The translations under genes were made by a program, and so were the position numbers. Under the pieces are notes generated by a model. It was not told the DNA's origin. It searched no databases and saw only the letters and a list, made by a program, of their open reading frames with translations. This document shows, piece after piece, positions 12,860 to 63,779 of a stretch of DNA of 64,000 nt. The stretch lies in the NCBI GenBank assembly GCA_003971905.1, contig RSEE01000070.1:124001-188000 (forward strand), read 5' to 3'. The DNA is from Moniliella sp. 'wahieum'. Its lineage: Eukaryota. Numbering within the stretch: position 1 is the stretch's first letter; each line of letters starts with the position of its first letter.

Positions 12860-14909
12860 GAGGGCCCACACTCCCTTTCTATCGCCTGTTTCTCCCTTTG
12901 CCCTTACCACCCCCCCCCCCCCCGCGTGCAATAGCACGTGCTGGTGCGGGCACGCTCCGCACCTGTGCTGGCTGCTGGCCAATTGCTGCTGGCGGTGCAA
13001 AACGTACTAAATGCCAAAATGAATCCACAATGTCTCGTCTCAGATCTCAGGCTTGAAGGTAGTACTTGCATCGAGCTTTGCCATATGGCCTCCTGAGGTC
13101 CAACCAAGATCCTATTGCACTGATCTACCCGTGTTGATCCTGCTGTGTTGCTGGGGAGGAGCACTGGCCTCTCCCAAAGTCCAGATGGCATCGATGGCAG
13201 AATAGAAAGATTGAAAGTGAAATCGCGTTTCCATATGCGACCCTTCCCCGCCAGGAGTGGGGCCGACTGGCAGGCAATGAGCTTAGGCACCCCCCACCCT
13301 CACAGAGAGCAGCACCTGCGATCCGCCACTGTCAACGTCTTCCATCTACCGTTGGCCATGGTTTCCCTCGAGTGTGGGTGCTATGGGTGTGGTTCGCTAT
13401 CCCCTTCTGTCTGATAGTGCGATGTTGGACGCGGAGGCACACGTTCACTATATATATGACACGCTTTCTCTCCGCTTTAATTTGCGTTTGGTACACCAAA
13501 TTTAAGACGGCCAAGGATCTCTTCCTTGACGTGGGCGATGCCAGCAATAAGACGAAGCTGCGGCACATGCTGAAGAATGATGACCTGGCCACCCCAGGCC
13601 ACACTCCATCCAATACTTTTTCGTACCTTTTGGGTTGGCTGGGTGTGCAACTCGCGGCCTACGACTTGGGAGGTCACGTGCAAGCACCCCGCCTGTGTGG
13701 ATGGGCTACTTGCACGAGGTCGACAGACAGCGTTACTGTAGGTACTAGTCGTCCGCATGGTTGTTTCCTCCGACATTATCCCGCTTGGAGAGCGACATAA
13801 AAAGCTCGAATGGCTTCTTGCCATTGGGGAGCTTGCCAAGGTGCCCTTCTTTATCCTTGGTAACAGATTGACTTTTCTTGCGCGGTCTCCACGGAGTGGT
13901 GAGCTACGTCTCGTGGTTGGCCTTACTATATAATGCCAAACCATAGGTAAAGACAATGTGCTTCCCAACGACGTTCTCCCTAGAGATCTGCATGTCCTCT
14001 GTCGGTGGGCGCAAAGAGGATACGACAAGGGGTTCTACTGGTTCTTCCTATTCTTGCGTCCCTGTACCTCGTCTGCCGCAGAAAATTTCTGGGAACACTG
14101 ACTACACCTCTCGGTTGTATTTGAACACCCTCATCCATGCGCCTCTGCCCTTCAACTTTTTTCTCGGATCTTACCAATCAGAGGGTAATACGACTTTGAC
14201 GTGGGTTGTCTTACGCTGCTTTGTCGATGGACTCGCGTTTCCTCTGCCCATTCTTGATCGGGTTGCTTTTCGTATTCAACTTTTCTGCAAATTTCCTAAC
14301 TAAAGGCAAAACACTACTGCTGCGCGCCTGCATTATGGCCCACATTATATGCCACCTACAGACGGGGTGGTAATGACTGCCAAAAGTTCATGGATTGAAA
14401 CGGGTGGGCAGCAATTGCGAGCACATTGCACCCGTGTGTACTACGATCGAAAGGGACTAGCTATAAAGGAGTAGGCAACTGGGTGTTCCGAATGGGTGCT
14501 GTGGGCGCTGCTGGGAAATAAATGGATTGCCTCCGCAGACACAGGCCTCTGTGGTCTCGCACTGAGACTGCGCTTTAAATTAAGTCGCTTCCCTCGTGCA
14601 GCGACGCTATATTCCAGTCTCCGACGGGAGCACACAGGCCAGTACCACAGCGATTTTAATTTTGCCCACACTTAGTACGAGATGAGATCTCAGACTCTCA
14701 AGAGGGCAGCCGTCGACAACGTGAGACACTAGTACACCACCACTATCCTATAGAACCTATTTTTTCTGGGCGTATGCGTATAATGCATATACGTATGGCC
14801 TTTATAAATACCGTGTCCATGCCCCTTGCCATCGCCCCCCTCCCCCACACCACCAACCACAGCCCCTTGAGCAATGGCTGTACTCCCGGCTCAACAGCAT
14901 GGCACTTTC

Positions 14910-27160: not shown

Positions 27161-30100
27161 GACTGTCGTCTTGCCGGCTGCTGCAGCACGCGCGTCTCTT
27201 CCCCCCAATCACACCCACCGGACTCTCTCTTCTGCCTCTGTATTAACTCAGTGTTTGACCACCCGTCACTTCAATCGCGTGTTGGGTATTGTACGGTCAG
27301 AGGATCTCTTTCGGCCTTTGCTTTCGGTCTTTCCACAGGCCTGCTCCCTGCCCCTCTCTCTACCCCTATCTCCTGCGTCTTTGTTGCATCTCATCGAGCC
27401 TCACTCTCTTCATTGGTAGCGCTGCCTCCCTTCCCCCCCTTCCATTGGTTATACGTAGCCTTGCACTTGCATACTTGGGCACTTGTGGGCAATTGATGGG
27501 GCAAAGAAAGCATCTTGAAGCTTGACTGCACACCTGAGAAAAACAGGCGGCGTAGCTGGTATCCCTCCTAGGGGCTAAAACCGGGAGACGGTCCCATAGT
27601 GTGGGGTAAATCACCTCCACCAATTAGTAACCACTCAGCGTCGAAATGGGCCGAGGCGGCGGAATAGCCCACACAGCGGAATTGTGGAGCGGGTGGAGGC
27701 CGGGCACTGGCTCTGTGTCGAGCGTCGCGCCCACACGAGGGGGGGCTACGTGTCGCCCAGGTGGGGGTATAAAACCCCGGCTGGCCGCCGTCGCAACTTG
27801 ACTCTTTTCCCCATCCTTGTGCACGGCCTTACCGCTCAAACTGTGAAGTTCCGACTGAGTTGAGCGCTTTGCTGATACGCAAACAAACTACCATACTCGT
27901 TCCCTGCGCTCCTAGGGTGCAGGGGCAATTTTCTGCCTTTTGCCCTCTCCCGGGAGTGGCTCGCATTGCATTCCGCATGATACCTCTGCCTCCAAACAAC
28001 AGCCAGCAACAGATGCCGTAGCCGCCCATGTGTAGGTGGACCTAGGTGGTGCTCCCGTCAGGTGGCCAGCCGTTGGACTTGGTTCAGGTTCACAGACGTG
28101 CGATGAAGTTGGGTCGTTGCGTGTGGGCGGGCACTCGGGCGATGCAGGCTATGCCACCAGCTTTTTACGGGACGAGCGCTCCAAGCCCATGGCGGCCGAG
28201 CAAGTGAACGACAGCACAACATATTTGGAGTCCAACACTGTGCGAACGGCAAGGGTATCAGCATCTTCTGCTTTCCCAATCTCTCACTGGTCAGCGTAGT
28301 TGGCGTGCACTGCACGCGGGCGCCCGGGAAGCCACTAGTTGATGGCCATGGTCCACTGACAGCGACAAGGGCATCTTTCCGGCACGCCTTGCCCGGCGTC
28401 GCGCAGGGCAGCCAGCGAAGCCTACTCAGATTGGGGGGGTAGAGCGATGGGATTTCGGACGCAAGGACGCAAGGAACGAGAGTGGCACCAAGAGCGGCAC
28501 TTAGGATCCACCAAGGCAATGCAGGCGATTGTTCCTTAACCCTGAAGCACTTGGCAACAGGGGCGCTGGTAGAGGCTGATGTTGATGGCTGCGGAGACGA
28601 GACGGGATAGTTGAAACATTGGTGGACGAAATGCAATGTTGCAAGTGACGCCAACTTGGGATGCTCAGTATATACACCGGGTGGAGCACTTGTGGTGCTC
28701 ACCACGGCCAACATCCACATCCTGCGCGCTCAGTACGCTCAGTCGTCGGGTACAAGGACCTCCAAGGGACCCCCCCTCAAAACCAACCCCCACATCCACG
28801 AGATAGTTGCCGTCGCCGAAGGGAGGCAGTCTTCATCGAATGTGGACTTTGTTTACGACGGTGTGCTAATGAGCAAAAGATGAGCTAATAAGAGGTGCCC
28901 CCAAATTCATGTGTCCATTTCGGTGGGATCCAATTGTGGCTACTGTATAGTATGTTGGGGATGGTTCACCGCTCGAATGTTTTCCACGCTCCATTGTATC
29001 GACACGGGTTGCATCCGGGTTGGAAGCGGATGGCGCACCAGAGGATCCTAATAACCTCTAATGGCGGCTCCCCTTCTGATTTTTCCTAACCGGGTTTTGG
29101 CGCCAACAAGCGCCCTTTATGGTGTGATATATGATAAGAGTGTCCCTCAGGTCTGATCTCCTCATAATATATACAGGGACCATCTCACTATACAAGGGCC
29201 AGAAAGGAATCTCCCGGCCCACAAGAAATCTGGAAGAGATGATTGCGAACAGTGAGATCTTATTGTTGTTTTAATGGCGTGAACGTTCTGTTGTGGTGGT
29301 TGGGAGACGCCTTGTGCATTTTCAACTATACAATGTGTCTCTTCGTCAACACAATACCAGCTCGGTTTCATACGCGAGCCGTTTAAGAAATGGATAGAGT
29401 AGAATAGTCGTCTCAGTCTCTGCCATCATGTATCAACAACGACGGAAGTGCATTTTTGAGGCTAGACATCCTGTGATGTTTGAAATAAAGGCAAGCCTCG
29501 CAGAAAGGCTCCCCATTGCAGCTCTGCCATCAGCTCTGAGTAATACTACCAGCCACAAAGTGCGCATGGTAATTATACATGGATGAAAAAAGCTGTAAGA
29601 ACAATCCAGGTGCGCCACAGGAAAGGGATGTGTGTCGCTGATCATTTCTCCCCTGATGCCAGTGAGCGCTCACGTCATGTTAAAACATTTCGAGGCAGCA
29701 CTGAGCGCACTCTGCAGACTGAGTGGACTTCAACTAAACGCCAAACATATAATCCACGGGACTGACGATACCGTCAAGATGACATGCCGACGGAGAAGAA
29801 GGGCGGTCTTTATGGGTACCAGTGGGAGAATGCAATAGATGCGAGAGAATACACTCATACCGACATAAAGACGTCTATGCGTTATGAATAGACGGGGAGG
29901 GAAAGTGGCACGATATGCGTAACACACCAACAACAACCTAAGGTGAAGACAAGTGAAATACATGGTGACGGGAAGTCATTGATATGGTGCGTTGATGTGA
30001 CACCGCGATATCTCTGCGAGATATGAGATGTACTAACCCTATATAAATGTAAGACCGTCGACGATACTTCCGCTTTCACGTTTTCATTAATAACCTCCTT

Positions 30101-33100
30101 CTGGTTTATCATGCACAGTTATTCCACAGAATGACACGGCCCATAGAAGAGATACATACTGTGAATCCGATTACCATCGACACAGTGATACAGGCTGTAC
30201 CGCAAGCAGCAGGCATTCTGCCGAGCCGCCGATGATCCAATGACTTTTCTTGCGTTAAGACTGGCATTATACATTACACCATGACGACTGTATAGCAACC
30301 TCTGACTGTGAGAGACAATGAAGCGTATAACTGCTCTCACATGTACCGTCGGCAATTCGCGTGAGCAAATAAAAGTATAGAAGCGGTTGTGTCCCGCCTG
30401 AAAGTGACTAGTAGGCCAGGCAACAGACGGAGTGCAGAGCGCGCACTATAGCAAAAAACCACTCAAAACAACCTAGGGAAGCACCCAATGCTACATGATG
30501 CATGATGTGTGGGACAAAGTATACTTGGTATATCTTCTCCTACCAATTAAGAGCTCTGATGATGATGAACAAAATTGTTTTCATCTCCTCAACACAAGAA
30601 CACTATGATTGATTGATTTTGCCATTCTCTCTCCCCTCCTGTGTAGTTCAATTTTTTGCACCACCATATATATTCCCAAACAGCCGCGTCTGGGTCCTCT
30701 GCCTCACCGACAGAAACAACCTTTCGTCATTTCCTTCGTCATCAACGCTAAACGTTGAAACGTCTCTTCAAGCTTCAAGCCGTAAGGTGTCTTTCTATTC
30801 TCTGACCGTCAGAGGGCCACATTTCCTTTTTTCTATATTCCTTTCACAAGCCCATCCCCACAGGCTCTCCCCCGCATTTTTGTGGTAGCAGGGGGGAGGG
30901 CACATCAGGGTATCCACACTGTCTGTATCGGGCTGTTCAGCATCTGGAGTGCACAATCTGTGCAGATCTGAGTGATATGACATGTGACAATTGATGATAT
31001 GGTTAAAACTACTATATAATATTCAGTGCTAGTGAGTAGTAGTAATACTCACTCAGTTTGAAGTATCCACTCAGTGAAGAGGTGTCGATGGGGCTGCTTA
31101 TCAGTAAGACCTAGAGCTGCGGACTGTGGAGGAGGAAGAATGCGAGATTACTTCTCTAAAATGACTGCGGGAGCAATTGTAACATGCAAGGGGATACATA
31201 TCTATAGCTAACTGTCCCGAATTAATGGAGACCACACTCCTATTACCCATTTAGAGAGCGACTACTCTTTTAGAATGTGGGTCCAATAGGGTAGAGTATA
31301 AGGTCTAAGATATAAGACCTTATCGATCCATCACGAGCACCATCTGTGCCGTCACATTCATATACATTTACGCTGTTCGAGAGATCTTTGGATTACGCGC
31401 TTTCGATCTTAGAGGTCAACCAGAACTATAATAGATGGGAAAATAAACGGCCGAACGTCAGTCTTCGCTTCAGCGCTGGGCTGTATACACCTGCATAAGC
31501 ATAGGGAAGGTGTGTGACATATGTGACATGTGACGCCGGCCAAACATGCATCTTGCTGTTTCCAATCCTTTGGTCGGTCGCATGTGATGCATGCGACATG
31601 TGACGGAGGAGGAGAGACTTTTACCCTACCTGTTCGGAGGACAGAGCATCATATCATAGCCTGTCTATTAATGTATAGCTTTGAAGTTCGAGGGTATGAG
31701 GCCATGAGCGCGTGAGCGCTGAGCGGGAGTGTGTGGCGTCGTCTGGAAGTGATTTATAGGATTAGCGCTTGGGTGGCGATTTAGTCATCACACTATACGC
31801 AATGCAAACTTTTCCCTTCAAGTATGTGAAGATGGCCCTTGCCTGAGGTTGAAAAGGGAGCTGGGCCAGGCTGAGCAGGAGAGGGAAGTCTCAGCTTTTG
31901 GGCTTTCAACGCGCTAGTTACAACTGAGAGGAAGAAAATTATTACCGTCAGGATTTCTGTGAGGCAAGCCAGTTACTGTGATAATGCCGACAGAAGTAGA
32001 GGGCAGATCCTACAGTATACCTTCGACATCTTCTTCACCCCCTTGGACATGCGAAAGCGGTGTCGTTCTGCCTGTGTCCGGGAAGGCAAAGAATGCTGTG
32101 GTGTGACCGGGGTAACCACAAAACAACTGTGGATTGTACCCTACTCTTAGTTGTATAGCCGAGCATCCAACTCATGACGGAATAACTTCTGGGAGGGAGG
32201 GAGGGGACAGTGCGCATGCGACACTTAATTCATACTCGTTCAGGCTGTGGAGTTCATCTCGTTCATCTGTAACCTGATGGGCCCTGTGATCACTCCGATG
32301 GCGCTGGGGATCCAATTGAAAATACATGCACCTACTATGAAACAGCTCAGTCAGCAGGTTGACGACATTGACGGTAAAAACACCGTCACTGGTGCGCACC
32401 AATACGGTCAAATGGTCCAAACAACACCACACGATTGCAATATCATGAGAAGGCAGCAGCGCAGATGCACACAGCTATTTACAGCTATTTAAGCGGAGGG
32501 TTATGCCCGTGGGCGTGACGGTTTACATTTAAGAATGATGATGATGCGCATGTCAAGGCTTCCCGTGAAAAGGAATCGTAGGCCTCCAGTTTGACCTGAA
32601 GATCAGAGAGGTCGAAAGGTAACCATCAATGGCGCGCCTTTTAAAGTCGATCGTCGCAGTCAAGGAGCTGAAAACGGGTTTGACTGACCCTGGCGATCAG
32701 AAGCACCCATTTTTTTGTCCGGGAGCCCAGTCAGCTACTCAGCCCTGCTGAGCCGACGGAAGGGCAGTAAGTCCCGAGAACCAGTACGACCGGGATCCGA
32801 CGGTTACCGGTTAGGCTGAAGACGATTGATATGCCGAACGGAGTTGTTTTGACGGTTTGACGTTGACCGTTGACCCGTCTCGAAAAGTTTTTTCGGTGTG
32901 GATACGGCCATCGCGCCCATCGGGGGAAAAGCAGCAGTAACGGCCGCACCGAGAGTTATATATATCCAGCTGATGAAAGGGCCGAAAAACGCACGATGCA
33001 TGATGTGTGTATAGGCGTTGACATCATCTTATTTTCAACGCACCGCGTGGGTAGTTGGGACGCTGGGTAGTTGGGAGGCAGATGAACATGGGGCCTGGGG

Positions 33101-33223
33101 AGGGGAACCGTGGGGAGTCTGCGTGTGGATGCCATTATTGCTGAAGGTGGAAAGCGATGATCGCACGGTCACCACGATCGGTCTCCTGCATGAAGCGGTT
33201 CCCATGAAACGATTTGCTTTTCA

Positions 33224-35050
33224 CGAGGCTTGAAGCTTGAGCTGAAGTGGAGTACAACGGCCAATTTGTATTGCATTCTCAGTTGATGAGTGGACGTTCG
33301 ATGGAGGAGCGCATCTGCGCCTGAGCCCGCCTGAGCTCATGAGGCAAGTGATGGTGTGGGCGCTGGAGTTGGCCAACGGGGGGGGGATACGATGAAAAGG
33401 ATTGGAGGAAGGGTGCGTCATCGCGTGATTGGCGTGATTAATGATTGCTCCGGGATATAGAATCAGAGGCACTACAAGGGCTGATGCATGATGCATGATG
33501 GGGCACACCAGCACACGCTCCGTACGCAGTACTCCCAGGTGAGGTCACTGAGTACTCATCGCTTCTTTCCTTAGTTTGCCGTCGGCCGCGGAGAACCGGG
33601 AGGGTATTAGCTAGAAGAGGGTTTTGACGTTTGGCAAAGAAGGCATGCCGCGCAGCCGTGGACCAGGTGAACGTTGAGCGAACGGTGAACGAAGGGGGCA
33701 CGTGATGCAAAGAAGTGGATGCGATAACGCGAGGGTGCGGCAGACAGCCGGGCGAGATAATCGATGATCGATGAGATCTGAGATTGAATATTGATGAGTC
33801 GATGACTATGATCGATGATCGATGAGATCTGAGATCTGGATCCGATCGAATTCAGAGCATTAATTGGGTCGCGGGAGCGCGGGAGCCCCAACGTCCAAAA
33901 CCGGCCCGAGCCTGACGCACCTGATGCATGATGCCAGATGCCTGATACGTGATGCATGATGGTATGATGGTGGCCGGTCGGAGACGAGTAGAGGGAGGTT
34001 GGGCTGGGTCCCCAACAGGGCTGGGACTCTGTTTATGTTGCTGTACGTTTTGATAACGCAGGGATAATATGTTTGCTAAAGAGTTTCTATTGACAATGGA
34101 ACGGGACACGACAATGATTCAGAAGGCAGCAGAAAAACCGTCCGAACTCAGAACTCAGGACTCAGAAACTCAGAACACCCCGACAGACCCGGCCCTACCA
34201 ATCTTCTGCCCGCCTGCAGCAACCAACGTACAGCTAAAGCAAAACGTGGCCCTATATCTCCCCTCTGGTGTACTGCTGTCGCGGTTGGCGCAGACAAAGC
34301 GTGTACGTACTGCGCCTTGTCGCTTTGGCGGTGGTATAGATAGAACCTCTCCACACGCAATTATGCTTTACCGTTGGCTGAATAGATTCGAGAATGGCTG
34401 AAAGGCAGATTAGTTTCCCAGGGCCCAATAAGGCGCCCAGACGCTCCATCCCGCAATGCGTGATGCATGAGCGCGAGCGCTGAGCCCTCGGCGCAGCTGA
34501 TGCAACGCCACACTCGCGCCCTGCCTCATTCAGATCTCAGAAGGGACCGGTGTCAGGAACGAGGCAAGGGATGGGATGGGCTGCCATGTATTGCCAGCTC
34601 AGCGAATCAGACATGCCCGCTCCCAACAAGCATCGCATGCCGCATCAGACCACTCTTGGGGGGCGGTGGAGCGGTTGAGGATATAGGCCCAACCCCATCA
34701 GCCTCTGGGCAAGCGCCTCGATGCGTGCACCGAATGCATGATACCAGCCAGTGGTCTTCCTCAACCAGTGATCAGTGACTTGAGTGACAGGTGACCCAAT
34801 GCGGGGCACCACTGCGGGCTAGTCATCACTAGCATTACTAGCTTTCCCAGGTAAGAGAGTGCACTGTAGCTTACTAGCTACTTGCTCACTAGTTACTAGT
34901 TCTAGTTACCTAGTTACCTGTGTTGAGCAGCAAGGGTGACCGGTGATGCTGATGGTGGTCTACGATGGGCAGATGCCAGTGGGTGTGATTCGAATGGGCA
35001 CTGCGTAATGCGCGTCTACATTCCGAGGCGATAAGATCGTGATGTGTGAT
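33224..35050. repeat. Dense cluster of 7-nt-phased TGA-N4-TGA micro-arrays
   Basis: Examples: 33482 TGA-TGCA-TGA-TGCA-TGA; 33809 TGA-TCGA-TGA-TCGA-TGA-GATC-TGA; 33922-33959 six phased anchors; 34148 TCA-GAAC-TCA-GGAC-TCA. Confidence 0.75.
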
Positions 35051-35693
35051 GCTGCGACGCCTAAAGCTTGTGACGTAGCCGTTGGGATGCATGATGCGTG
35101 GTGCTGCTGAGCCTCTGAGCCAGCGCAGGCCGGCGCTGAGGAGTGCCGGCTGAAGCTGCCCTCCAGCAATGCAAGCACTGGAGGGCACTAACCGCTGTAC
35201 AGGCTGTACAAGCAGCCCGAGTCCTGCCGATCGAACACGGCCAGCGGCCTGTGCGTCGGGGGGCGCGTGGCAGCCACTGCGGCACTGTCCCCCCCCCGGC
35301 CGAATGCAGGGCCAGGGCCGCAGTGGGCTGGGGCATGGGCGCGCTGTGCGGGTGGGTCCACTGGCTGCAGCCCACCGCCCTCCGCCCCGGTCACCCATCC
35401 TGCATCATGCATCCCACCTCACACGTCGGAGGGCAGGGCTAGCCAGCTGTGGGCTGGTGCGGGTGTGCGGGTGTATGCTGGGTGGGCAGGTTGGCGTACT
35501 AAGTGCTAAGTAAGTACGCTTCGCTCTAATCTCATAAAGGGTGGGAACGACGGCTGTGCTGCGGCAGCACACCCCTGCAGTCCCTCCATCCGTCTCCATA
35601 GGCTGCGTCCATCTTCCGCCCCACTCCATCCATCTCCGCCCCTTCCACCCCCACCCCCTTGCCCAGCTCCCACGCCTTCCTTTTGCGGTGGTC

Positions 35694-48925: not shown

Positions 48926-49398
48926 GGGGCTGAGGGCTGAGGTGGGGAGACTATCTTTTGTTGGTTTCGTTTTGCACCTGTACTTTTCCCCGTCTCGGAC
49001 ACTCGAAGCTCGGTGCTTATAGCTCTGTATTTACCATGTCTAGTGCTTGGCTGTGTTTCCCCGGGGCTACCTGCGCCGGCGCGTGTCGGAGGGATAGTGG
49101 TGCGTGAGGCTGGTTACAGAAGGGTAGGTTGGATAGAGCAAAAGAGTGGTTGCTGGGGGCGTTGATTAATGACACGACGGCTTGCTCGGCCCAGCCCCAC
49201 CTCGACGGGAGAGGTGCGCGGGGGAACCGAGCCGGAATTGCAGCGCCACGCTAAATCTGAGGGTGTGAGATCTGAGATGCGAGACGCGGGTTGCACCGAT
49301 TGTGCTATTATTTTTTGGTCCGACGCTGGCCAAGTCAACCAATCTACCAACCCACAACCTGATCGGTCATCCCCACCCGCTCCCGCCAGTGCTACAGG

Positions 49399-53769: not shown

Positions 53770-54796
53770 ATAAGAGTTTTGTGGCATCCCTCTCGCGATG
53801 CGAATTGGAACTGGGTGAAGAGCACGCTGTCGGGACCAGACTCACCTGGTCACCGATGCTCACCAGTTTGACTGGACCCTGTTTTGTTCTAGATCCTATC
53901 TCCCCCTTTTGGTTCTATGCTCCCCCTTTTGTTTTCTCCGTGTGAGTCAGCTCACTCGGCCTCCTCTTCTCCGAGGTATATATACCTCGCTCCCATATGC
54001 CACTCGATGAATATGATCTCTATCCTTTCCCCCATCTCCATCTCCTGATACACGCCGTTGGAAGATCGCCAGGAGTGACCAGTAACTAGTGACCTCTGAT
54101 GATGACCTTTCGCCACGGAACGGAGAGCGGAGGGGTAGTAGTGTGCCGAAAAAGCACTTATAGCTTTGGGACTGTGATCTCTGGCAGTCGATTTTTCAAT
54201 TCTGAACGTCTTAGACTTGAAGCAGTGAACTTGAAGCTTGAGATCAAGCCTCCCGGCCTCCCCACACTGTTTTGAGGCATTTTACTCCATACTTGTTTGC
54301 CCCAATCCTTTTCGCCGTAGAAGTTTATCTTTTGGACACGCAGAAAACCAAGCGAACACTCTCTTTTTTCGAACCCTGTAATCACATGTAATACTCTGGT
54401 GCCTGAGGGGCCTGAGCCTGAGGCCTCAGTCTCAGGTCTGATGAGTCGATGAGGCCCGATGCCTGAGGCCCTGAGGCTTGATGGTCTGAGTTACTCCAGC
54501 CCTCTGAGCCTCAGCAGGCCTCTTGCGCGAACGTAACGAGTACCTGCATCATGTATTTTGCCGTCCATTGAGCATATTGAGCCGAGAAGAGGGACTGTAC
54601 CTGCTCTGCCGTCTACGTATCCAGGCACAGGGCGTGCTGCGCACTGCGACGGAAAAGCATCGACACCCTTGACCGGCGTATGGTGCTTAGCGCTTAGCCT
54701 AAGCGCCTATACCGGTCACCGGACCACCGTCGTTTTTTTCCTAAAAGCTATAGAGGAAACGGCGCCGAGAAGGAAGCGCTGCGGAAACTGAAGGGG

Positions 54797-55854
54797 CACG
54801 TGGCATGGTGGTGGGGTGATCGTTACCGTTTAGCAACCCCTAACGCCTTGTGCGTTGCTCTTCCGGTCACGCGGGTTTCGCCACTCGGTCGGAGTACTCG
54901 GTACTCGTATACTCTCAGTATACTCTTCGTACTCCGAATTCTGACTCAGTACTCACTGCTCCCTGTGAGAGGGTGGCAGCATCCGGTTGCGGGCGGCTAC
55001 ACCTCCGGTTGTAAGCGCCGACAAGCTAGAGCATGCTATAGGTCCGGACAAGACAGGGACAGAAAGACGGGATACAGCCACACGTTTTACACCAACAGCT
55101 GTCGGTGTTCGAATAATGGCGCGGATCAGGGCAAAAAACGAGGCAGGGGCAGGGGTAGGCTGGGCAGCAGGAACGGTCCCTTGGCCACAGCGTTTGGCCT
55201 GAGCAGGTCTGCGCTCGCGCTCTTCATCGATCATAGCCTCGACGGCCGCTGCACTCCTATATCTTTGGGGGGACTGCTGGCAGGCCGCCGGAGCAGAAAT
55301 CTGTGATGGTGGTGATGGAAACTGGAAGAGGCAGGCATCTGGCCCAGCGTGAGACCCTGTGGGACCTAGATTCGACCGACACTTCTCCCGTGCCGCATGC
55401 CGAATTAAGCACGCGGCCAGAGACAGAGTGAGGAGGCGCCACTCACACCGCCCCCGTGCTGGGAGGCGCACGCAAGAACCCGAGCCAAGAGCCAAGACGG
55501 GGGCGCTCCAATTTCATGCGGGCGGCATCCAGCAGCATAGAAACAGCTGGGCCACAACGCCGCAGCAGACGAGTGTAGCGGCGGGTGTCGAATGCGCACG
55601 TTCCCCAGGCCGCTGCATCCATCACCCACCACGGATCACCGCTGCCACCGATCACATGCTGCGGCTTGGACGACGGTGAGCGGGGGCTGGGCGGGGATGC
55701 CGGGGGGAGGGGATGGGTGATCTGACTTGCTGGTGCGCCTGCTGCTGGGCGCCTGCTGCTGGCCAGCCAGCACGCGGTGTGGTGTGGTCAACATACTGAA
55801 CATGCCCGGCAGCACACCGCGCCCTCCCCGTGCATCCTCCCGGCAGCGCACGTT
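54797..55854 (+). promoter_or_regulatory. Candidate Pho4-type E-boxes upstream of the phosphate transporter
   Basis: CACGTG at 54797, CACGTTTT at 55081, CACGTT at 55597 and 55849, all within ~1.3 kb of the ATG. Confidence 0.4.
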
Positions 55855-56064
55855 CGCCTCACCTGCAAGCCGAGGAAAACGCAACCCCGCCTCTTGCGCC
55901 GCCCGTCCTGACACTCCTGTCCTGCCCGCACCTCCCGTTGTGTACCTGCCACAGCCGCCCCTCCTGTCGCCTGCCCACGCCATCCGTCGCATCTGCCTTT
56001 TAAGCGTGCTGCTCCGGTGCTCTGCCCTGCCTCTTGTCCCCACCACCACGTCCCTGCGTCGGCC

Positions 56065-58396
56065 ATGTCTGACGAAAGTATGTCTGCTCTTCCTTGTGCC
56101 GCCTTGTTCTCCCCCGCTCACCTCTCTCCCTGCGCTAGTCCACATGCAGCAGGTCAAGCAGACCGAGTCCTCTGTGGGCACCAGCCCGGACGTCAGCCCC
56201 GACTCCGACTACGACCACACCGTCCTCTCCGACGAGGCTGCGGCGCGTCTCGATGCCATCCTCTTCCCCACCGACTCGTACACCGACAGCAAGGAGTACT
56301 GGGCCGACCTGCCCGCCAGCCAGCGCACCCGCTGGATCAACGCCCAGAGCAACGCCGAGGCCAAGCGCGAGCTTGGCGTAGTCTGGTCCATGTTCAAGGA
56401 GGACCCCCTTTCGCCCCTGCGTGCTTACTGGAACAACTACGCCATCACTGGTCTCGGTCTGTTTGTCGAGGGCTACACCCTCTTCTCGGTCGGTAACCTC
56501 AACCCCATCTTTAAGGAGGTGTGGCCGCAGTGCTGGAAGACGTACAAGGTGTGCAACGCTACCTGGGTCCACTCGACCGACTACCTCCAGATTGTCGGCA
56601 TTATCTGTGGCCAGATCTGCGTCGGTATCGAAGCGGACTGGATTGGCCGTCGGGTACGTTTTTTTCTCTCCCATTCCCGGTATTGCTGAGCCGGTTGCCT
56701 GTACTGACATGTGACGCGGGTGACTAGTTTGGTATGGTGCAAGATGCTCTGATTATGACGCTTGGATCGGTTATGCTTACCTCCATGTGGGGCACGTCGC
56801 TCAACGGCTGGGTCATCTGCTACGCCTGGTCTCAATTTGTGTACGGCTTTGGTGTTGGTGGTGAGTACCCCGTGGTAGGCACCACCTCGATGGAACAGGC
56901 TTCTGGTCATGGCGCTGGCGAGCGCGACCGTCTTCACCGTGGTCGTCGCGTTGCTCTTTCCTTCCTTATGCAGGGATGGGGCCAGGTTATCAACCAAGTT
57001 GTGCTCATCATCCTCATCTTTCCACAACGACTTGGGTGACAAGGGCTACAATGCCAAATCGACCCAGTGGACCTTCCGTGTTTCCTTTGGTATCATCGCC
57101 GCCTTCACCCTCTACCTTGCTTACCTGCGTTACTACCGCATTCGCAACACGGACGATGCTGTGCGTGCGGCCAAGAAGCGCACCCACACCTCGGGTTACG
57201 ACATTGTGTCGCTCAAGCATGCCCTCACTCATTATTATGGCCGCCTGTTGACCACCAGTGGTCTAGAGCCCATCGGCCTTCAGTGACACGTGGCCCGATC
57301 CACACAGTGCACCGGGGCAGTGAGTTCCGACCCTTCCACGGGTTTCCACTGGCCTCCAGGCCAGGAGCCTATCAAGGCCCATAGCTCTAGCTCTCCTTAG
57401 CTCTTGAATGCCATCTCCATCGACCATCGCCAGCATCGCTAGCTAGGCCTGTGACACCGCCTGATCGGCACCACCTTTGGCTGGTTTGCCAACGACTTTG
57501 CCTTCTACGGGAACAAAGTGTTCAGCGGTGTGTTTATCCAGATCATTACTGGCACTTCGTCCGTGCGGGTCACCTGGCTGTACCTGATCAACGTGGTGTC
57601 AGTTTGTGCGGCTACTACATGGGCGCCCTCCTGATTGACCACAAGAACTACGGCCGCAAGTGGATGCAGTTCAACGGTTTCTTTATGCTCTTCGTTCTTC
57701 TCCTTATTTCGGCCGCCGCCTACAAGCCGCTGACCGTCCCCGGCCCGGGCGTCAAGGGTTTCGAGGCGATCTACTTCCTGATTGGTTTCTTCAACCAGTT
57801 TGGCCCCAACACCACCACCTTCCTTCTCGCCGCCGAGTGCTACCCCGCGTCGATTCGTGCCACGGCGCACGGTGTGTCGGCTGCGTGCGGCAAGCTCGGT
57901 GCGTTGGTGCCGACGATTGTGTACAACTACGTTGCGTCCCGGACCAAGTTTGGATTGTGACCTGGTTCGCCTTGGCTGGGTGCATTGTCACTCTTGTGTT
58001 TGTTCCCGACACGTCGGGTCTGGACCTGCGCGAGTTGGAGCGCTACTGGATCTACGTCCGTGACGGCCGTGCGGAGGACTACCACGGTGTGGCGGTGCAC
58101 CCGCGCCACCTGTCGCTGTTTGAGCGTGTGGTGCTGCACCGCCACCGCGCCTACGACCCGAGCTCGACCGCCGGGCGAAGATTGACGAGCTGCGACAGGC
58201 GTACGAGTCGATGAAGGCGCTCAACGGTGTTGAGGACGGCGACGCAGACCACCTCACCGCCGAGCAGCGTGACTTCCTCGAACATGAGCTGGCCAACTTC
58301 TTTGACTCGGAGCGCAAGTTGCGCGGACACGACGTTATGGCCTCGGCGCACCCGCAACCTTCGCAGTTGGCAGCGCTGGAGCGCAAGTTGGCATAA
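56065..58396 (+). pseudogene. MFS phosphate:H+ symporter family (PHO84-like) gene interrupted by a solo LTR
   Basis: GLFVEGYTLFSVG, GIEADWIGRR, GFGVGGEYP, RGRRVALSFLMQGWG, WFANDFAFYGN, FFNQFGPNTTTF..ECYPASIRATAHGVSAACGKLGA. Introns 56078-56138 and 56654-56727. The insertion at 57246-57456 introduces an in-frame TGA at 57284-57286. Confidence 0.8.
57246..57456. mobile_element. Solo LTR-like insertion (211 bp) within the transporter CDS
   Basis: TGTTGAC...GTGACA termini. Perfect 5-bp TSD CCGCC at 57241-57245 and 57457-57461. Removing it restores YYGRLIGTTFGWFAND. Confidence 0.92.
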
Positions 58397-61300
58397 GCTT
58401 GTTGTCAGTTTGCTTTTAGCCCCCTTTGGAGCCCCCTTTGGAGCCCCCTTTGGGCACCCCGTTTATCCCCCCCCTCCCCCTTTTCTTGTTTCCTTTCGCA
58501 AGCCCATACCCGCAAGATTGGGCATCGACGCCTTCCAGCAATGCCCTATCTCTTCTCTCTTGTCCTTTAAAAGAATCAGCTCTCACGTGTCACGCGGTAC
58601 TACCTTGGTGTGTGGTCCTTGGCAGGCGCCTTGGCGATAGCCCCTCCTCTCAGTCATCATGCCCATTTATCCGCTTGTTAAAACGTCATATGACAACTGC
58701 CTGTTCTTCGACCTACCACCATATTGGCGGCCCCTTCTGGCCCTGTCTTGATGCATGTGCATGAGCCTGCATGATCTCGTTCGATGGTTAATTACGTCAA
58801 TTTATCTGCCATCCTACGCTTGCCAAATTTGCTGCCTCACTTCTTCGTAGTTGTGATAATCAACACGGATGGAGAGAGAAGCGAGAACAAACATAGTTGG
58901 CAAGCTGGCCAAACCTCTCATAAATTGTGAGCCTGTGGCGATGCAGTCTGTCGGACCCAAGGCGAGGCGATGAGGGAGGGTATGCGGAAAAGGGTTGGGC
59001 GACCTCAATCTTGCCCGTTTCTCGTGGGCTCGAGACGGCCCTCGCCAGCTAGGGGGGAATAGGATTTCTTGCTAGCGCGGCTGGTGGGGTCTACCGATCT
59101 AATTGATCTATTGAACCACGGATGCATTGCCTTTTTGGGTCTCTAGCTCAATCTGCTTTGTCTCTCGGCAGATGACAAACAGCAATGCAGGTATATCGTC
59201 TTCAATCTTATCGTGCAGTTACTGCCGGTTACCAGTTACCATCGGTTAGTACCCAGCGCCGCTCCTAGTAGAGTAGACCATAAAGAGTTACTTCTCCGGC
59301 TTGGCACGTGCCGCACGCATCTTTCCTGACGCGATCACATCCCACACCCTCTGAGATCTGACACCCAACTCATCGATCATCACGTATCGCAGCACACCAT
59401 AGATATAGGCCTTAGGCCTCGTCCGGCGCAACACAACTAATAGTAGTATTAGTCAGCGCTGAGGCTTCAGCTCCCACAAGCAACAGCTTGAATAGAAGCA
59501 ATCCCACTATGACCAGGGTGCAGTCCACGGTTTTATCTTTCTTCCTGAGCGGGCCTGAGGCTCAGTAGGCCCGCTCCAGTGCATGGCCCGATAATCGATA
59601 AGCGGATGAAAAGCATCTGCATCCGTGCCATCCATTCGTGAACCATTGAACATCAAGGTTACTAAGCCCGACGCCCCGCTGGCCGAGCACAAGTAGGAGT
59701 GTGATCCGATATGGCCGGGTATGGCCGGCACGGATGAGGGTCTTGGCCCTGGTTTGGATCGCCCGCGGTACCTCAGGCAGACCTCTGACAGGTTGCGGGT
59801 AAAGAACTCGTTGGGCTCGGCCGACCAGTACACGCTGTCACTCAGCCAGCCGCGGCAAACCATCATTGACAGTGCCCAGCCAGCCAGTTTACTATGCCTC
59901 CGTGGACGGACTATCTGGGTAAAAGATATACCTGGCGCGCCTTTGAGCCTACGAGGGTGGGTCTGGTTGGGCACCGTGGTGCTTGAGACTGTAACTGGGC
60001 AGTCCGCAACTCTGGCCTCAGGCTTGGTCTCAACGATATCTAATCCTCAGGCACTGAGGCTTGAGGACCTGCATTGTAAATCCGGGGGGAGCAGGCCATA
60101 GGGTTAACCCTACCTCCAGGTCGCTGGGGTTGTGCCGCAGCAAGGTCTGAACTGTGGTTCAAAGTTGCAGAAGGAGGTCGCGCCTGCCGCGAAGAATATC
60201 AGGGGGCCCAAGTTCAGCCTCTCTGGCTTGCTCCCCTACCACGACCAACTTGGGTGAGTACTGAGTCGCCTCTCTCGTTTGTTCCGGCTGTGATGATAGG
60301 CGCAGGACAGATTGCGTTCATCGCATCTAGCGCCCATTAACTGGCACCTCCACGTTGATTCAAGGTCTGCTCTCCCTCGTGGGGGCAGTGATGCCGTCAC
60401 TTTGCCTTCTGAGCCGTCACGAGTGCCTGTGCACCTGTTCTTGGGACGAATGAGTTAGCTGACCTTCTCTTCCCTTTTCGTTCCAATGTCAACTGCAGAA
60501 ATCACATCTCTACTCGCCCTCGACTCTTTTTGTCTGCAGCATCGTCAGTTTCACACGTCCCGTTGAGCCTTAAGAGCACTGTACCGGTCCTCCTCGCTTA
60601 TCCTCTGCCCTTCTAGGGCAAGGACAGGCAGGGTACAAAGGACAGCGGCTGCTTCACTTCGGTGCGAGCGGCCGCTCAAGACGGTCAGCACTTGTGTCAT
60701 ACTCAACCAGATCATCGTCCTTGCGGGTTGGCAATGTCCTTTGGGGCTTGGCGCCCTGGGCCCATGGACGGGGCTTTTTTGCACGCGTCTGCTCACTGGG
60801 TCTGGGCGTCTAGGTCAGCCCTTGGTACATTTTTGTTTAATGCATTTTCTTGGATTCTGTTTGCCTCTCGCTTGCCTCCTTGTTGCCTTGTGTGTAGGTT
60901 TGGTCGAGCCGGTTGTCAGTTGATTCTCTTTAAGCGTCACTAGCATTGTTAAGCCATCCCGGGTGGCTCTTGCTTTGGCCATGTCCCTTCAGTTCCTCCT
61001 CAGGCCTGGGAGAGTTCCTTGTTTTCTCTCTCTGCTGTTTTTCCCTGTTCCGCAGCTTAGCCCCTGGTGGCGACTCGCTGCTTGATGTTCTTCTGTAGGC
61101 GTTGCTGGTTGACTTAGACCACCACCACCAGTGCGATTGCATCACCCCTCGAGGACCATCAGGACTCCAGGTCTCATCAAGCGTCACTAGCGTCCCTCGC
61201 AGGCGTCTTCATTGTGGTGGTTCCGATGGATGGCACGTATTCGCTGCGTCATTACTGGCGGACTCACGACTACCAATAAGGCCTGAGGAAACATGCACAG

Positions 61301-62221
61301 GAGGAAATCGAAATGGATTCAAGAATCGGCGACACGTCGAGACATAGCCGAAGGCATGTTGGACCACCAGGTGACAAGTTCAGCTAGCAAGGGCGCTTTT
61401 CAGCACGAGCAGGCTTGCCAAAGAGTGGACTGCGTCCTTCTCGGTCCCGCATGTACGCCAGCGACCACAGAAAGGTCAAGGCAATACAAAGTACGCAGGG
61501 ACCTTTTTTACTTTGTTAAACAATGAAGAAGAAAAGCAAAACGTGCGCGGCTGCGCTGGCCTTTATATAGCTGCGAGCAAGTAGAGAACAAAATTCATTC
61601 CGCCCAGTTCGCTGCAATCCACTTCCGTCGACGGAGCGGAAATGCCAGTTCCGCCTGAACGATGAGCCGATGGACATTGGACATTGAACGTTTGAACAAA
61701 GTTGAATGTTGAAATTTAATCATGGTCGGTGTAATTTACCCCAGATACCTGTGGAGCTACGATGGCCGTTGTTTTTTATTGTGAAGGTGAAGATGCAATC
61801 GCACTAGCGGTAGTGGCAGTGATGGTCTAAACTCCAACCAAGAACACCTCCAAGGACAGCAATAAGCAAAGCGCCTTTAGGAATGGATGCGGGACGAAAA
61901 AAGTCAACCGAGAAAATGTCAGAGCGCCGTAACGCGTACGACTGAATAGAGGAGAGACTGGGAAAAATGTGCTTAGCTGAAGAAGAGACCTCCTTTGTCA
62001 ACTCTACAAACGCGCATCACGACAGCCGGCCCGTAGATCATCAACGCCATCCACATTAAACTCTTTGGAGGATCAAACAGTATTCAGAATCATGTCATTT
62101 GGGAATGGACCTGGACGTTAAGCGTATTTGTGCTGCGAGATTCAATGAGAGCTGTTGTCCAAGGCCCTCTCCCAGTTTCCTCTTTTAGATGTTACGTTTC
62201 CTCGACTCGTTACTCGTTGCC

Positions 62222-62330
62222 ATAGTTTGGCTGATCTCGCTCCCATTTCCAATTTCTTCGTCTCGAGCGTCTCGCTCCTTCCCTGTTTCTTCCACTTCGC
62301 ACCATGTCCTCTATTCTTGCTTCTTCCCCA
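62222..62330 (+). repeat. Degenerate dispersed repeat, partner of 52220-52320
   Basis: Shared GATCTCGC.CCCATTTCCAATTTCTT and AGCGTCTCGCTC blocks. Confidence 0.7.
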
Positions 62331-63779
62331 CGAACGATTGCTACACCCCTTGGCCTAGTCCGATTCTGGTCTCCCTCGCCTTAGCCCCGAGTGTGACACT
62401 CGTGACTACCCTCGTTTTGCTCTCCTTTTGCTCGGAGGGGAGGGATTAATGCGGACTCCTCTGGGGTCCACTCTCTTGTTCTGCAAACACTGCTTGTTCT
62501 TTGATCTCAAAATTGCGATTGCCAAAACAAAAGAGGTGTTGCTCTTCGTCGTTTTCCTTTGATTTTCTCCCCAGATATATCAGCTCTCAGGACTTGCGAC
62601 GCTCTACATGGATGCAGAGCTGCGATCTCGACCTAACTCCGAGACAAGATCAGAAAGCAGCAAATGGAAATGGTGGTCGGTGGTGATCCGAATAAGGCGT
62701 TTTGGCGAAACGAAGTCACTATAGTCTTTTCTTCAAGCTTCATCGACATCAAGGAATTTGGAACGCCACATGTCTGTGAACACATCACACGGACACTTTT
62801 GGTCGGAGGTGACCCGGTGACGTGCACGTTACTATCGGGGACATGCCCTACTATTAGCGCTTATTTTATTTTAGCCTAAGCGCTAAAGCTTAACGCTAAG
62901 CTTAGCTGCCATCGATCGCGGTGCACTTCCGGCCTCATTAATCATTAGCGCCGAGGGACCGCGGGCTCCGAGGACTGCTGATGCGCACATTACTCGCATA
63001 AGCCAACGACTAATAGCCTTGTCCTGTTTGCCCTTGTCCTGCTTCCTACCCTCAACGCGTATCTCTCGCCCGCAATCGATCGCCTACCCTACTGTCCCAA
63101 ACGCTTCAGCATCCATTGCGGTCTCCATAGCAGAGTGGACCAGGACGTCGCTACACTTCTCCACGCCCACAGGGCAAATAGGGTGCTGGCAGCACAGGCA
63201 CGGCGCCAATGCGCACAGGCCCTCATATTCCCAACGTTTCCCAACACGCCGCCTTAGAGTGACCTGTGAGGGGTTACCTTATGCGAGGCAGCACCACACG
63301 ACACTGCCCACCCCGCAAAAGCGGAATTACCTAGTTGACCCTGAGATCGACCTGAGACCCCATCTGTCTTAGCGCCGCCGCTGGTTTCAGTTGTGCAGTG
63401 CGCGGAGGTCGAAGGAGAAGTGGCCTGCAGTTATATGTGACACCACGTGACGACGATCCGCTCGTTTGGCGCGAGTAGTCGCACAAGGAGCCGCCAATCG
63501 CTCATGGCGATCACCAGTGCATGATGCGTGACCGGCGACCGGCGACCACGAGGTACACCAAGTACGAATCGATGAGTGGGTGATTAATGATTAATGATCG
63601 CTGATCGATGGGTCGGAGGGAGGGTTGCCCAAGCTTAATATATTCGCCAGCAGCAGTGGGCGGCCAGGCTTCAAACCTGCAGCAAAGCTCGCTTATAAGA
63701 TACTCATGGGCTTGGATCGAGAGTGCGTCTGGCCCGCCCGGCTGATTTGCTCACCACCAGCAGCTCTCCCTCTCGCCCT

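What the first reader, a model, noticed from the sequence alone, without database searches (positions are those of the whole stretch)
33224..35050. 7-nt-phased TGA-N4-TGA arrays with variable but mostly palindromic cores
Seen: upstream of the PPS1-like gene, TGA (or TCA on the other strand) recurs at exact 7-nt spacing while the 4-nt core changes. Sites: AGCT (33231), TTAA (33435), TGCA x2 (33482), ACGT (33668), TCGA/GATC (33765, 33809-33832), ATAT (33785), TGCA-TGCC-TGCC-TACG-TGCA (33922-33959), GAAC/GGAC (34148), TGCA (34461), GATC (34530), TCAG (34769), CAGG (34785), TGTG (35040). My manual count is ~21 in 1.85 kb, against ~1 expected at uniform base composition. About 15 have a self-complementary core (1/16 by chance), i.e. 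different 6-bp A....T palindromes chained by a single G. A single slipped satellite would keep one sequence; here the grammar is constant and the sequence is not. Inference: either sites for an abundant factor reading phased TGA half-sites, or products of a hairpin/template-switch duplication process. Because 7 mod 3 = 1, three phased TGAs close all three reading frames. I recall TCACGAA/TTCGTGA-type heptamers being abundant in Ustilago maydis intergenic DNA and fitting the same pattern; that recollection needs checking.
Basis: partly seen in the sequence, partly recalled or inferred. Interest (0 to 1): 0.8.

Follow-up and report, generated by a model that had tools for sequence, protein, structure and literature searches.

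The report
Phased TGA palindrome repeats: likely repair scars
A non-coding stretch of a smut-related fungus is packed with 12-letter words made of a 5-letter repeat starting with TGA or TCA plus a 2-letter mirror-image filler, which looks like the scar of a DNA cut-and-repair process rather than protein docking sites.

Summary
Window 33224-35050 holds 22 TGA/TCA-N4-TGA/TCA pairs, against 1.5 in shuffles, and 16 of the 22 have palindromic cores.

It is not local. The whole window has 69 pairs, 38 of them palindromic, mostly in non-coding tracts. By contrast, 307 kb of other fungal contigs give 7 palindromic of 198 and no spacing-7 peak.

The grammar can be sharpened to a 12-mer, R-P-R: R = T-(G/C)-A-x-y, and P = the reverse complement of xy.
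- There are 35 such 12-mers, against 0.29 in shuffles and 0 in the controls.
- The spacer is the reverse complement in 27 of 35 testable cases (reverse 0, complement 1, direct 1).
- The 5-letter repeat extends on one side or the other, rarely both (16, 13 and 3), so most are not plain 7-nt tandem duplications.

A covarying filler cannot be read by a protein. I read the words as templated-insertion scars. The most likely form is P-nucleotide footprints of hairpin-intermediate breaks, as left by cut-and-paste transposon excision, at NN-TSA-NN sites, later amplified locally. No such element, transposase domain or repeat family is in the window.

The organism is related to Exobasidiomycetes, not Ustilago maydis. 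The mechanism is inferred and needs the whole genome and relatives to test.

The parts
28730..35400 (.). Non-coding, lower-GC gap (0.43-0.58) between a RhoGEF/CNH gene plus U4 snRNA gene and a dual-specificity phosphatase gene. It holds 32 of the window's 69 phased pairs.
   Evidence: No stop-to-stop ORF of 120 aa or more lies between 28730 and 33437. GC profile. ATG ORFs of 60 aa or more. Of 68 ORFs of 55 aa or more, none reaches a Pfam cut-off. Flanking genes. Strand counts.
33229..33240 (-). R-P-R 12-mer, CTTGAAGCTTGA on the + strand. The same word recurs at 27514 and 54230.
33435..33446 (+). R-P-R 12-mer TGATTAATGATT
33482..33500 (+). R-P-R-P-R array (TGATG CA TGATG CA TGATG)
33668..33677 (+). 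Bare 10-mer TGAACGTTGA: palindromic core, no flank extension
33763..33794 (+). Chain GATGA-TC-GATGA / TGAGA-TC-TGAGA / ATTGA-AT-ATTGA. The first 21 nt can be derived from GATGAGA by one event on each side of a single TGA.
   Evidence: the derivation is my inference
33809..33838 (+). Second chain, (TGATCGA)x2 then (TGAGATC)x2. It includes a 28-nt copy of 33757-33784.
   Evidence: (D12)
33922..33961 (+). Degenerate 5.7-unit TGATGCA-type array with two intact R-P-R words (33922, 33950)
34144..34176 (-). Ordinary 7-nt tandem array (GAACTCA x4.6 on +), non-palindromic cores
34461..34470 (+). Bare 10-mer TGATGCATGA
34530..34541 (+). R-P-R 12-mer with C centre, TCAGATCTCAGA
34769..34794 (+). Two phased pairs with non-palindromic cores (TCAG, CAGG). 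34767 AGTGA-TC-AGTGA is the only non-self-complementary case in which the filler mirrors the TGA end.
34935..34946 (-).
35040..35049 (+). Phased pair with non-palindromic core TGTG
29125..31724 (.). Further R-P-R words in the same gap, starting at 29125, 30494/30496, 30766/30768, 30978, 31522 and 31713
13038..13049 (-). Isolated R-P-R word TGAGATCTGAGA. The same word occurs at 33772, 33823 and 49266.
27514..27525 (-). Isolated R-P-R word between the end of the RhoGEF gene and the U4 snRNA gene
49266..49277 (+). R-P-R word between the bHLH gene and the SLX9 gene
54230..63604 (.). Second tract rich in R-P-R words, starting at 54230, 54944, 59350, 59370, 60255, 62731 and 62935, plus the array at 63581-63604

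Best explanation
The phased TGA pattern is a mutational scar, not a reading grammar.

Shown: the unit is a 12-mer, R-P-R. R is T-(G/C)-A-x-y, present twice. P is the reverse complement of xy, placed between the copies.

Inferred: each word is a 7-nt templated insertion beside a pre-existing T-S-A, made of 5 nt copied directly and 2 nt copied as a mirror image.

The model I favour is as follows.
1. DNA is broken with a stagger around NN-TSA-NN. Most simply this happens by insertion of a cut-and-paste element, which duplicates the target.
2. On excision the two flanks are sealed as hairpins.
3. Host nucleases open each hairpin 2 nt off the tip, giving self-complementary 4-nt overhangs.
4. End joining keeps one overhang and clips the other.

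The result is TSAxy-y'x'-TSAxy or its mirror form, with equal chance. Each scar doubles the local number of T-S-A targets. Local re-insertion and slippage then build chains, arrays and hot spots such as 33.2-35.1 kb. Scars persist where selection is weak, in lower-GC non-coding tracts.
For: (1) Covariation without a fixed sequence. 12 of the 16 possible palindromic cores are used. Of 50 TSAxy-NN-TSAxy words, 35 have the reverse-complement spacer. Where the four transforms differ, the counts are 27 reverse complement, 0 reverse, 1 complement, 1 direct and 6 other.

(2) Enrichment. 35 words against 0.29 (maximum 3) in 200 block shuffles, and 0 in 306,709 nt of 39 other fungal contigs.

(3) One-sided extension. 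Downstream only 16, upstream only 13, both 3, neither 6. P(both <= 3) = 0.0013. This is what 'keep one overhang, clip the other' predicts. Decay of full 7-nt duplications would not give it.

(4) The two mirror forms are about equal: G centre 19, C centre 16.

(5) The mirror filler is specific to T-S-A repeats. 36 of the 57 filler-type 5-mer repeats contain TGA or TCA, among 273 repeats at spacing 7.

(6) Predicted side products exist.
- Three 6-mer repeats with a 2-nt mirror spacer at period 8. These are all 3 T-S-A cases; 0 of the 17 non-T-S-A cases have such a spacer.
- 7-mer NN-TSA-NN repeats with a mirror-type start to the spacer at 50701, 45008 and 63340.
- 7 words with opposite centres (expected 0.47). 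Four of them are TGA-palindrome-TCA words that keep the xy extension, as a longer mirror tract would give.

(7) Decay halo. 53 one-violation variants against about 7 expected, spread over all positions.

(8) Location. 58 of 69 pairs, and 34 of 38 palindromic ones, lie outside windows with codon periodicity. The hot spot is also the richest in other short tandem repeats, with 17 of 104 TRF loci in 4 kb.

(9) Literature. hAT, Transib, RAG1 and Muta1 form hairpins on flanking DNA that host enzymes such as Artemis may open, and end joining leaves footprints (PMC5499845, passages read). Some Transib families target odd-palindromic sites such as cCASTGg (PMC1131882, passages read).
Against: No element is in sight. 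No pair with 10 or more of 12 terminal-inverted-repeat matches lies next to a 7-nt NN-TSA-NN duplication. With a 5-nt duplication there are only chance-level hits.

No transposase or other mobile-element Pfam domain was found in the 165 ORFs scanned.

No known eukaryotic superfamily combines flank hairpins with a 7-bp duplication. From PMC1131882 (passages), Transib makes 5 bp and hAT 8 bp; the values for the other superfamilies are recalled, not checked.

End joining is usually more variable than the near-uniform +7 outcome seen here. Spacings 5, 6 and 9 show no clear excess.

Several period-9 'side products' can equally be read as plain 9-nt tandem repeats.

The density, about 0.5 words per kb and 14 pairs in one kb, is high for footprints.

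The 27:5 bias for G on the + strand in the gap (p = 0.002, sites not independent) is not predicted by a symmetric enzyme. Shared descent inside arrays explains only part of it.

The 2-nt hairpin opening rule is recalled from V(D)J biology and was not tested.
Confidence: 0.42

Rival explanations
1. Replication template switching without a break. The polymerase pauses at T-S-A, copies 2-3 nt from the complementary strand, and returns 4-5 nt upstream. Hairpin-prone units then expand by slippage.
For: The same signature, an inverted copy followed by a direct copy. [quoted passage not shown] The region is generally rich in short tandem repeats. No transposon need be postulated.
Against: Published template switches have no sequence anchor, and fragments under 12-13 nt could not be told from chance in that study. 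Here the anchor T-S-A and the 2-nt quantum are almost invariant. The return jump would rest on about 1 nt of homology. The arrays do not fold unusually well as single strands: z = -0.50, +0.54, +0.14 and -1.85.
Confidence: 0.25
2. Arrays of sites for an abundant DNA-binding (or RNA-binding) factor that reads TGA every 7 nt on one strand, in a long regulatory region upstream of the phosphatase gene.
For: TGA is the only invariant part. In the 28.7-35.4 kb gap the G is on the + strand 27:5, whichever way the R-P-R word points. The densest cluster lies 0.5-2.3 kb upstream of a + strand gene. The same words recur at unlinked places.
Against: A protein cannot demand that unread letters be each other's reverse complement. 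Phasing rarely exceeds 2-3 units: 8 runs of 3 or more among 59. Spacings 14, 21 and 28 are barely raised. The words are absent from the other clear gene-upstream gaps, 18.85-19.03 kb and 44.4-47.0 kb, and common in gene-poor tracts. One-violation variants are spread over all positions, as in neutral decay.
Confidence: 0.15
3. Ordinary heptanucleotide microsatellites born by slippage, with palindromic units favoured only because hairpins promote slippage.
For: Plain 7-nt tandem duplications with and without T-S-A exist in the window. TRF reports period-7 arrays in the region.
Against: Most words have match runs of 5-6 nt, shorter than one unit. A full duplication would extend on both sides, and only 3 of 38 do. 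A 6-nt palindrome cannot fold on its own, and array folding is unremarkable. No such bias appears in 307 kb of other fungal DNA: 7 of 198 palindromic.
Confidence: 0.1
4. Chance or composition, a single known transposable-element or satellite family, or an assembly artefact.
For: None beyond the local G richness of the + strand.
Against: Shuffles. No extended similarity among flanks. No mobile-element protein domains. The words are spread over 50 kb.
Confidence: 0.03

Closest known systems
Excision footprints of cut-and-paste transposons that form hairpins on flanking DNA (hAT, Transib, MULE), and V(D)J coding joints with P nucleotides
   Same: A direct repeat of the target with a short palindromic filler templated by the adjacent flank. 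Either flank can donate. The outcome is left behind after the element has gone (PMC5499845 passages). Odd-palindromic target preference is known for some Transib families (PMC1131882 passages).
   Different: The repeat geometry (5+2, or 7 with 2 replaced) matches no superfamily I know of. The outcome is far more uniform than usual end joining. The anchor is T-(G/C)-A. No element or transposase is in the window. The scars are dense enough to form a visible grammar and arrays.
Short template-switch mutations (four-point model; Loytynoja and Goldman 2017, PMC5453318)
   Same: A single event creates an inverted copy plus a direct repeat flanked by dissimilar sequence. It explains compensatory-looking covariation without selection.
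   Different: Known events are not anchored on a motif, and those analysed were 14 nt or longer. Here the inverted piece is 2-3 nt, always beside T-S-A, and the net gain is always 7 nt.
Intergenic heptamer direct repeats of bacteria (TAACTGA repeats of marine Beggiatoaceae, PMC4679880; title and start of abstract seen only)
   Same: A 7-nt unit containing TGA, intergenic, in arrays of a few units, with function unresolved.
   Different: In bacteria the unit sequence is constant and the arrays are longer. Here the unit varies while its internal symmetry is kept, most copies are 1.7 units, and the host is a fungus.
Ordinary micro- and minisatellites
   Same: Head-to-tail periodicity. A few true arrays (33482, 33809, 63581) probably grew by slippage.
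   Different: There is no common unit. Most copies are shorter than two units, and the spacer obeys a reverse-complement rule.

Membership tests
Simple tandem repeat (slippage satellite) | At least two full head-to-tail copies of one unit | tested here: not met
   Match runs at period 7 are mostly 5-6 nt. Only 3 of 38 palindromic pairs extend on both sides. A minority of loci (33482, 33808, 63581) do meet it.
Simple tandem repeat (slippage satellite) | The same unit sequence at all loci | tested here: not met
   12 different palindromic cores.
Hairpin-type transposon excision footprint | Direct repeat of fixed length (target duplication) at the joint | tested here: met
   5-nt repeat TSAxy in 35 words. 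6- and 7-nt versions also occur.
Hairpin-type transposon excision footprint | Filler is the reverse complement of the adjoining flank (P nucleotides) | tested here: met
   27 of 35 reverse complement, against 0 reverse, 1 complement and 1 direct.
Hairpin-type transposon excision footprint | A cognate element with terminal inverted repeats or a transposase in the genome | tested here: inconclusive
   None in this 64-kb window. No whole genome is held.
Hairpin-type transposon excision footprint | Empty, filled and footprint alleles among strains or relatives | not testable with these tools
   No close relative's DNA could be reached. The best metagenome matches are 48-72% identical at protein level.
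Hairpin-type transposon excision footprint | Duplication length of a known superfamily (Transib 5, hAT 8) | tested here: inconclusive
   5+2 fits Transib's 5 bp only if the filler always comes from one flank. The better-fitting model needs 7 bp, which matches no hairpin-forming superfamily I know of (recalled).
Template-switch mutation | The new sequence is a reverse-complement copy of nearby sequence, with a return to the original template | tested here: met
Template-switch mutation | Ancestral and derived states identified by comparison of close genomes | not testable with these tools
   No relatives are available.
Transcription-factor site array | Constant recognition sequence with free spacer | tested here: not met
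   The spacer is not free. It is determined by the neighbouring two letters.
Transcription-factor site array | Bound by a protein; position conserved in relatives | not testable with these tools
   No binding or comparative data.
Known RNA family or structured element | Match to an Rfam model, or a fold better than shuffles | tested here: not met
   Only U4 at 27813-27947 reaches a gathering score. Fold z-scores are -0.50, +0.54, +0.14 and -1.85.
Bacterial TAACTGA-type heptamer repeats | Constant heptamer in arrays, bacterial host | tested here: not met
   Variable units. Fungal host.

The most novel reading that the evidence does not exclude
An Exobasidiomycete-like fungus carries, or recently carried, an undescribed break-making activity. 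It could be a cut-and-paste element with a 7-bp NN-T(G/C)A-NN target duplication, or a domesticated nuclease derived from one. Its uniform P-nucleotide scars are so frequent that they write a genome-wide sequence grammar at about 1 per kb of neutral DNA. They seed heptamer arrays and create their own new targets. This would be a self-amplifying mutational signature not reported for any eukaryote.
Probability: 0.3. Interest if true: 0.8.

Novelty: new variant of a known kind. Interest (0 to 1): 0.68.

Why it matters
If the words are scars, they are an unusually clean natural record of one repair pathway: hairpin opening 2 nt off the tip, with one overhang kept and the other clipped. They would also record a lineage-specific source of small insertions that builds repeats and palindromes out of nothing.

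That would give a direct handle on how short tandem repeats and perfect palindromes are born. It would also offer a way to find the responsible enzyme by its target rule.

If instead a protein reads them, this would be a new kind of spacing-based site. Either way the pattern is a strong lineage marker, absent from 307 kb of other fungal DNA. Motif-discovery programs run on this genome would wrongly report it as a regulatory motif.

Tried and rejected

Sequencing runs: none was listed for 28700-36500, and no RNA holder was listed.

Earlier findings of this scan: nothing for this place, this sequence or this genome. The word 'Exobasidiomycetes' is not in the index. A search on 'TGA palindromic heptamer' returned only bacterial heptamer-hairpin notes.

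Relatives' DNA: one metagenome scan with the RhoGEF domain gave 39 fungal contigs at 48-72% protein identity. They were too distant for synteny and served as negative controls only.

Hidden gene or degenerate mobile element in the gap: none of 68 ORFs reaches a Pfam cut-off. tRNA search: none. Rfam: only U4.

Intact elements: terminal-inverted-repeat scans next to 5-nt or 7-nt T-S-A duplications gave only chance-level hits.

Structure: single-strand folds of four arrays are not better than shuffles.

b-mating-type binding site idea (TGATG-like homeodomain sites): the Rbf1 paper's text gives no motif letters. I dropped the idea because the cores vary.

Simple 5-bp duplication plus P nucleotides (Transib-like): kept only as a variant, because the filler would then always have to come from the flank end away from T-S-A.

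Plain 7-nt tandem duplication: rejected.

Solo odd palindromes y'x'TSAxy as primary targets: only mildly enriched, 9.6% and 7.7% against about 6%.

Period-9 'duplication plus filler' cases: several turned out to be ordinary 9-nt tandem repeats.

Literature searches that found nothing on such a grammar in fungi.
Full report
**Observation**

The stretch 33224-35050 contains 19 TGA-N4-TGA and 3 TCA-N4-TCA pairs. Two thousand dinucleotide-preserving shuffles of the same 1827 nt give 1.49 +/- 1.21, maximum 7. TGA-to-TGA distances show one peak, at 7: 19 there, 0-7 at all other distances from 3 to 30.

Sixteen of the 22 cores are 4-nt palindromes, where 1 in 16 is expected.

There are 14 TGA runs in the region, four of them with 3-4 phased units, plus 2 TCA runs.

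**Setting**

The region is the right-hand part of a 6.7-kb non-coding tract with lower GC, 28.73-35.4 kb.
- On the left are a + strand RhoGEF/PH/CNH gene that ends near 27.4 kb and a U4 snRNA gene at 27813-27947.
- On the right is a + strand dual-specificity phosphatase gene starting near 35.5 kb.

None of the 68 ORFs of 55 aa or more in the tract reaches a Pfam cut-off. No transposase or other mobile-element domain appears in the 97 further ORFs scanned across the window.

The proteins place the organism in the Ustilaginomycotina, but far from Ustilago. The best matches are Tilletiaria, Microstroma, Meira and Jaminaea at 45-63% identity; Ustilago and Sporisorium reach 51-55%.

**The pattern is window-wide and specific to this lineage**

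The whole window has 69 pairs, 38 with palindromic cores. Block shuffles give 29.9 +/- 5.2 pairs and 2.0 palindromic, maximum 7.

Only TGA (29 of 48) and TCA (9 of 21) behave this way among the 64 trinucleotides. The excess at spacing 7 over neighbouring spacings equals the number of palindromic cases.

58 of the 69 pairs, and 34 of the 38 palindromic ones, lie outside windows with codon periodicity; such windows cover 47.5% of the sequence.

As a control I used 39 fungal contigs fetched from metagenomes with the RhoGEF domain (306,709 nt, 48-72% protein identity). They hold 198 pairs, of which 7 are palindromic (3.5%), and show no spacing-7 peak.

**Sharper grammar**

Among the 38 palindromic pairs, the direct repeat continues for exactly two more letters:

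| Extension | Count |
|---|---|
| downstream only | 16 |
| upstream only | 13 |
| both sides | 3 |
| neither side | 6 |

Independence of the two sides is rejected: P(both <= 3) = 0.0013.

Turned to one orientation, the unit is a 12-mer, R-P-R. R is T-(G/C)-A-x-y and P is the reverse complement of xy.

- There are 35 such words, 19 with a G centre and 16 with a C centre. Shuffles give 0.29 (maximum 3) and the control contigs give 0.
- Of all 50 TSAxy-NN-TSAxy words, 35 have this spacer. Where the four possible transforms of xy are distinct, the spacer is the reverse complement in 27 of 35, the plain reverse in 0, the complement in 1, a direct copy in 1, and something else in 6.
- The mirror-type spacer is tied to T-S-A. 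36 of the 57 such 5-mer repeats contain it, among 273 repeats at spacing 7.
- Match runs at period 7 are mostly 5-6 nt, shorter than one unit. So most words are not 7-nt tandem duplications.
- The same words recur at unlinked sites without any flank similarity: TGAGATCTGAGA four times, CTTGAAGCTTGA three times.

**What this excludes**

- A protein cannot require two unread letters to be the reverse complement of two others. The phased half-site reading therefore does not explain the core rule.
- A 6-nt palindrome cannot fold on itself, and the arrays fold no better than shuffles: z = -0.50, +0.54, +0.14 and -1.85. Selection for hairpins is unsupported.
- One repeat family or mobile element is excluded by the lack of flank similarity and of any mobile-element domain.

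**Mechanism (inferred)**

Each word looks like 7 nt added beside one T-S-A, with 5 nt copied directly and 2 nt copied as a mirror image. A junction that is palindromic with no loop is the mark of a covalently sealed hairpin, or of a strand switch.

The model that fits most features has four steps.
1. A staggered break forms around NN-TSA-NN and duplicates the site, most simply by insertion of a cut-and-paste element.
2. On excision, both flanks are sealed as hairpins.
3. Each hairpin is opened 2 nt off the tip, giving self-complementary 4-nt overhangs. This rule is recalled from V(D)J recombination and was not tested.
4. End joining keeps one overhang and clips the other.

This yields TSAxy-y'x'-TSAxy or its mirror form with equal probability. 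It explains the one-sided extension, the 2-nt quantum and the roughly equal numbers of the two forms.

The model predicts side products, and some are present.
- 6-mer repeats with a 2-nt mirror spacer at period 8: 3 of the 3 T-S-A cases, against 0 of the 17 other 6-mer repeats with a 2-nt spacer.
- 7-mer NN-TSA-NN repeats whose spacer begins with the mirror dinucleotide, at 50701, 45008 and 63340.
- Seven words with opposite centres, against 0.47 expected. Four are TGA-palindrome-TCA words that keep the xy extension, as a longer mirror tract would give.

The chain GATGATCGATGAGATCTGAGA at 33763 can be derived from GATGAGA by one event on each side of a single TGA. That would explain why TCGA and GATC cores sit side by side (my reading).

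Each scar doubles the local T-S-A targets. Re-insertion nearby and slippage would then make arrays and hot spots. The hot spot is also the richest part of the window in other short tandem repeats: 17 of 104 merged TRF loci lie in 32-36 kb.

A halo of 53 one-violation variants, against about 7 expected, is spread over all positions and looks like neutral decay. Part of that halo is the reverse reading of intact words.

From the literature: hairpins on flanking DNA, opened by host enzymes and joined with footprints, are described for hAT, Transib, RAG1 and Muta1 (PMC5499845, passages read). Odd-palindromic target preference (cCASTGg) and 5-bp duplications are described for Transib (PMC1131882, passages read).

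**Against this model**

- No element with terminal inverted repeats next to a 5-nt or 7-nt T-S-A duplication is in the window, and there is no transposase.
- A 7-bp duplication combined with flank hairpins matches no superfamily I know of (recalled).
- The outcome is more uniform than end joining usually is.
- Several period-9 candidates are plain 9-nt tandem repeats.
- The density is high for footprints.
- In the 28.7-35.4 kb gap the centre is G on the + strand 27:5, whichever way the word points. The background of solitary sites is 137:100 (p = 0.002, sites not independent). A symmetric enzyme does not predict this; shared descent within arrays explains only part of it.

**Rivals**

- A break-free replication template switch gives the same signature and needs no element (PMC5453318, passages read). 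It does not explain the T-S-A anchor or the fixed 7-nt gain.
- A factor reading phased TGA keeps the strand bias and the position upstream of a gene in its favour, but fails on covariation and on distribution. No words lie in the divergent gene-upstream gaps at 18.85-19.03 kb and 44.4-47.0 kb.
- Hairpin-favoured slippage fails on run length and on one-sidedness.

**Comparison and novelty**

The closest known things are P-nucleotide footprints of hairpin-forming transposons and short template-switch mutations. The bacterial TAACTGA-type heptamer repeats (PMC4679880, title and start of abstract only; also earlier notes of this scan) share only the 7-nt unit with TGA.

I found no description of a T-S-A-anchored 5+2+5 word class in fungi in three full-text searches. 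These searches cover open-access papers only. I file the finding as a new variant of a known kind of mutational scar, with the enzyme unknown.

**Verdict**

The mechanism is inferred from one 64-kb window, so the decisive tests need the whole genome and close relatives.

Noticed in passing
27813-27947 (+): U4 spliceosomal snRNA gene (Rfam RF00015, 52.7 bits, gathering score 46), about 400 nt downstream of the RhoGEF/CNH gene.
   Followed up: partly
16726-16913 and 52856-53041: A roughly 188-nt element present twice in opposite orientation, 95-96% alike and 36 kb apart. It has no Rfam family at gathering score, no tRNA and no obvious target duplication. It could be an unknown small RNA gene or a short mobile element.
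   Followed up: partly
52224-52309 / 62226-62309 and 416-580 / 63839-63998: Two further dispersed similarities (73 of 82 and 132 of 159 identical). The second pair lies near the two ends of the window and may belong to paralogous genes.
   Followed up: partly
7650-9200 (+): Long in-frame 21-nt and 18-nt coding repeats in ORFs of 5.7-9.7 kb that have no Pfam match themselves. They lie upstream of the ORF at 10129-11109, which carries a Sec16 Sec23-binding domain.
   Followed up: no
50200-64000: Gene-poor tract with few long ORFs (a sugar-transporter fragment at 57.4-58.0 kb) and many R-P-R words. Local runs of one strand occur, for example three on the - strand at 58576-58650 and five on the + strand at 63260-63595.
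   Followed up: partly
35072-35097 and 35402-35427: An inverted pair of GGGATGCATGATGC-type words, 304 nt apart, brackets the GC-rich 0.3 kb just upstream of the phosphatase ORF.
   Followed up: no
whole window: The organism is not Ustilago. The best protein matches are Exobasidiomycete-type Ustilaginomycotina at only 45-63% identity, so no annotated close relative seems to be in the protein collection.
   Followed up: partly
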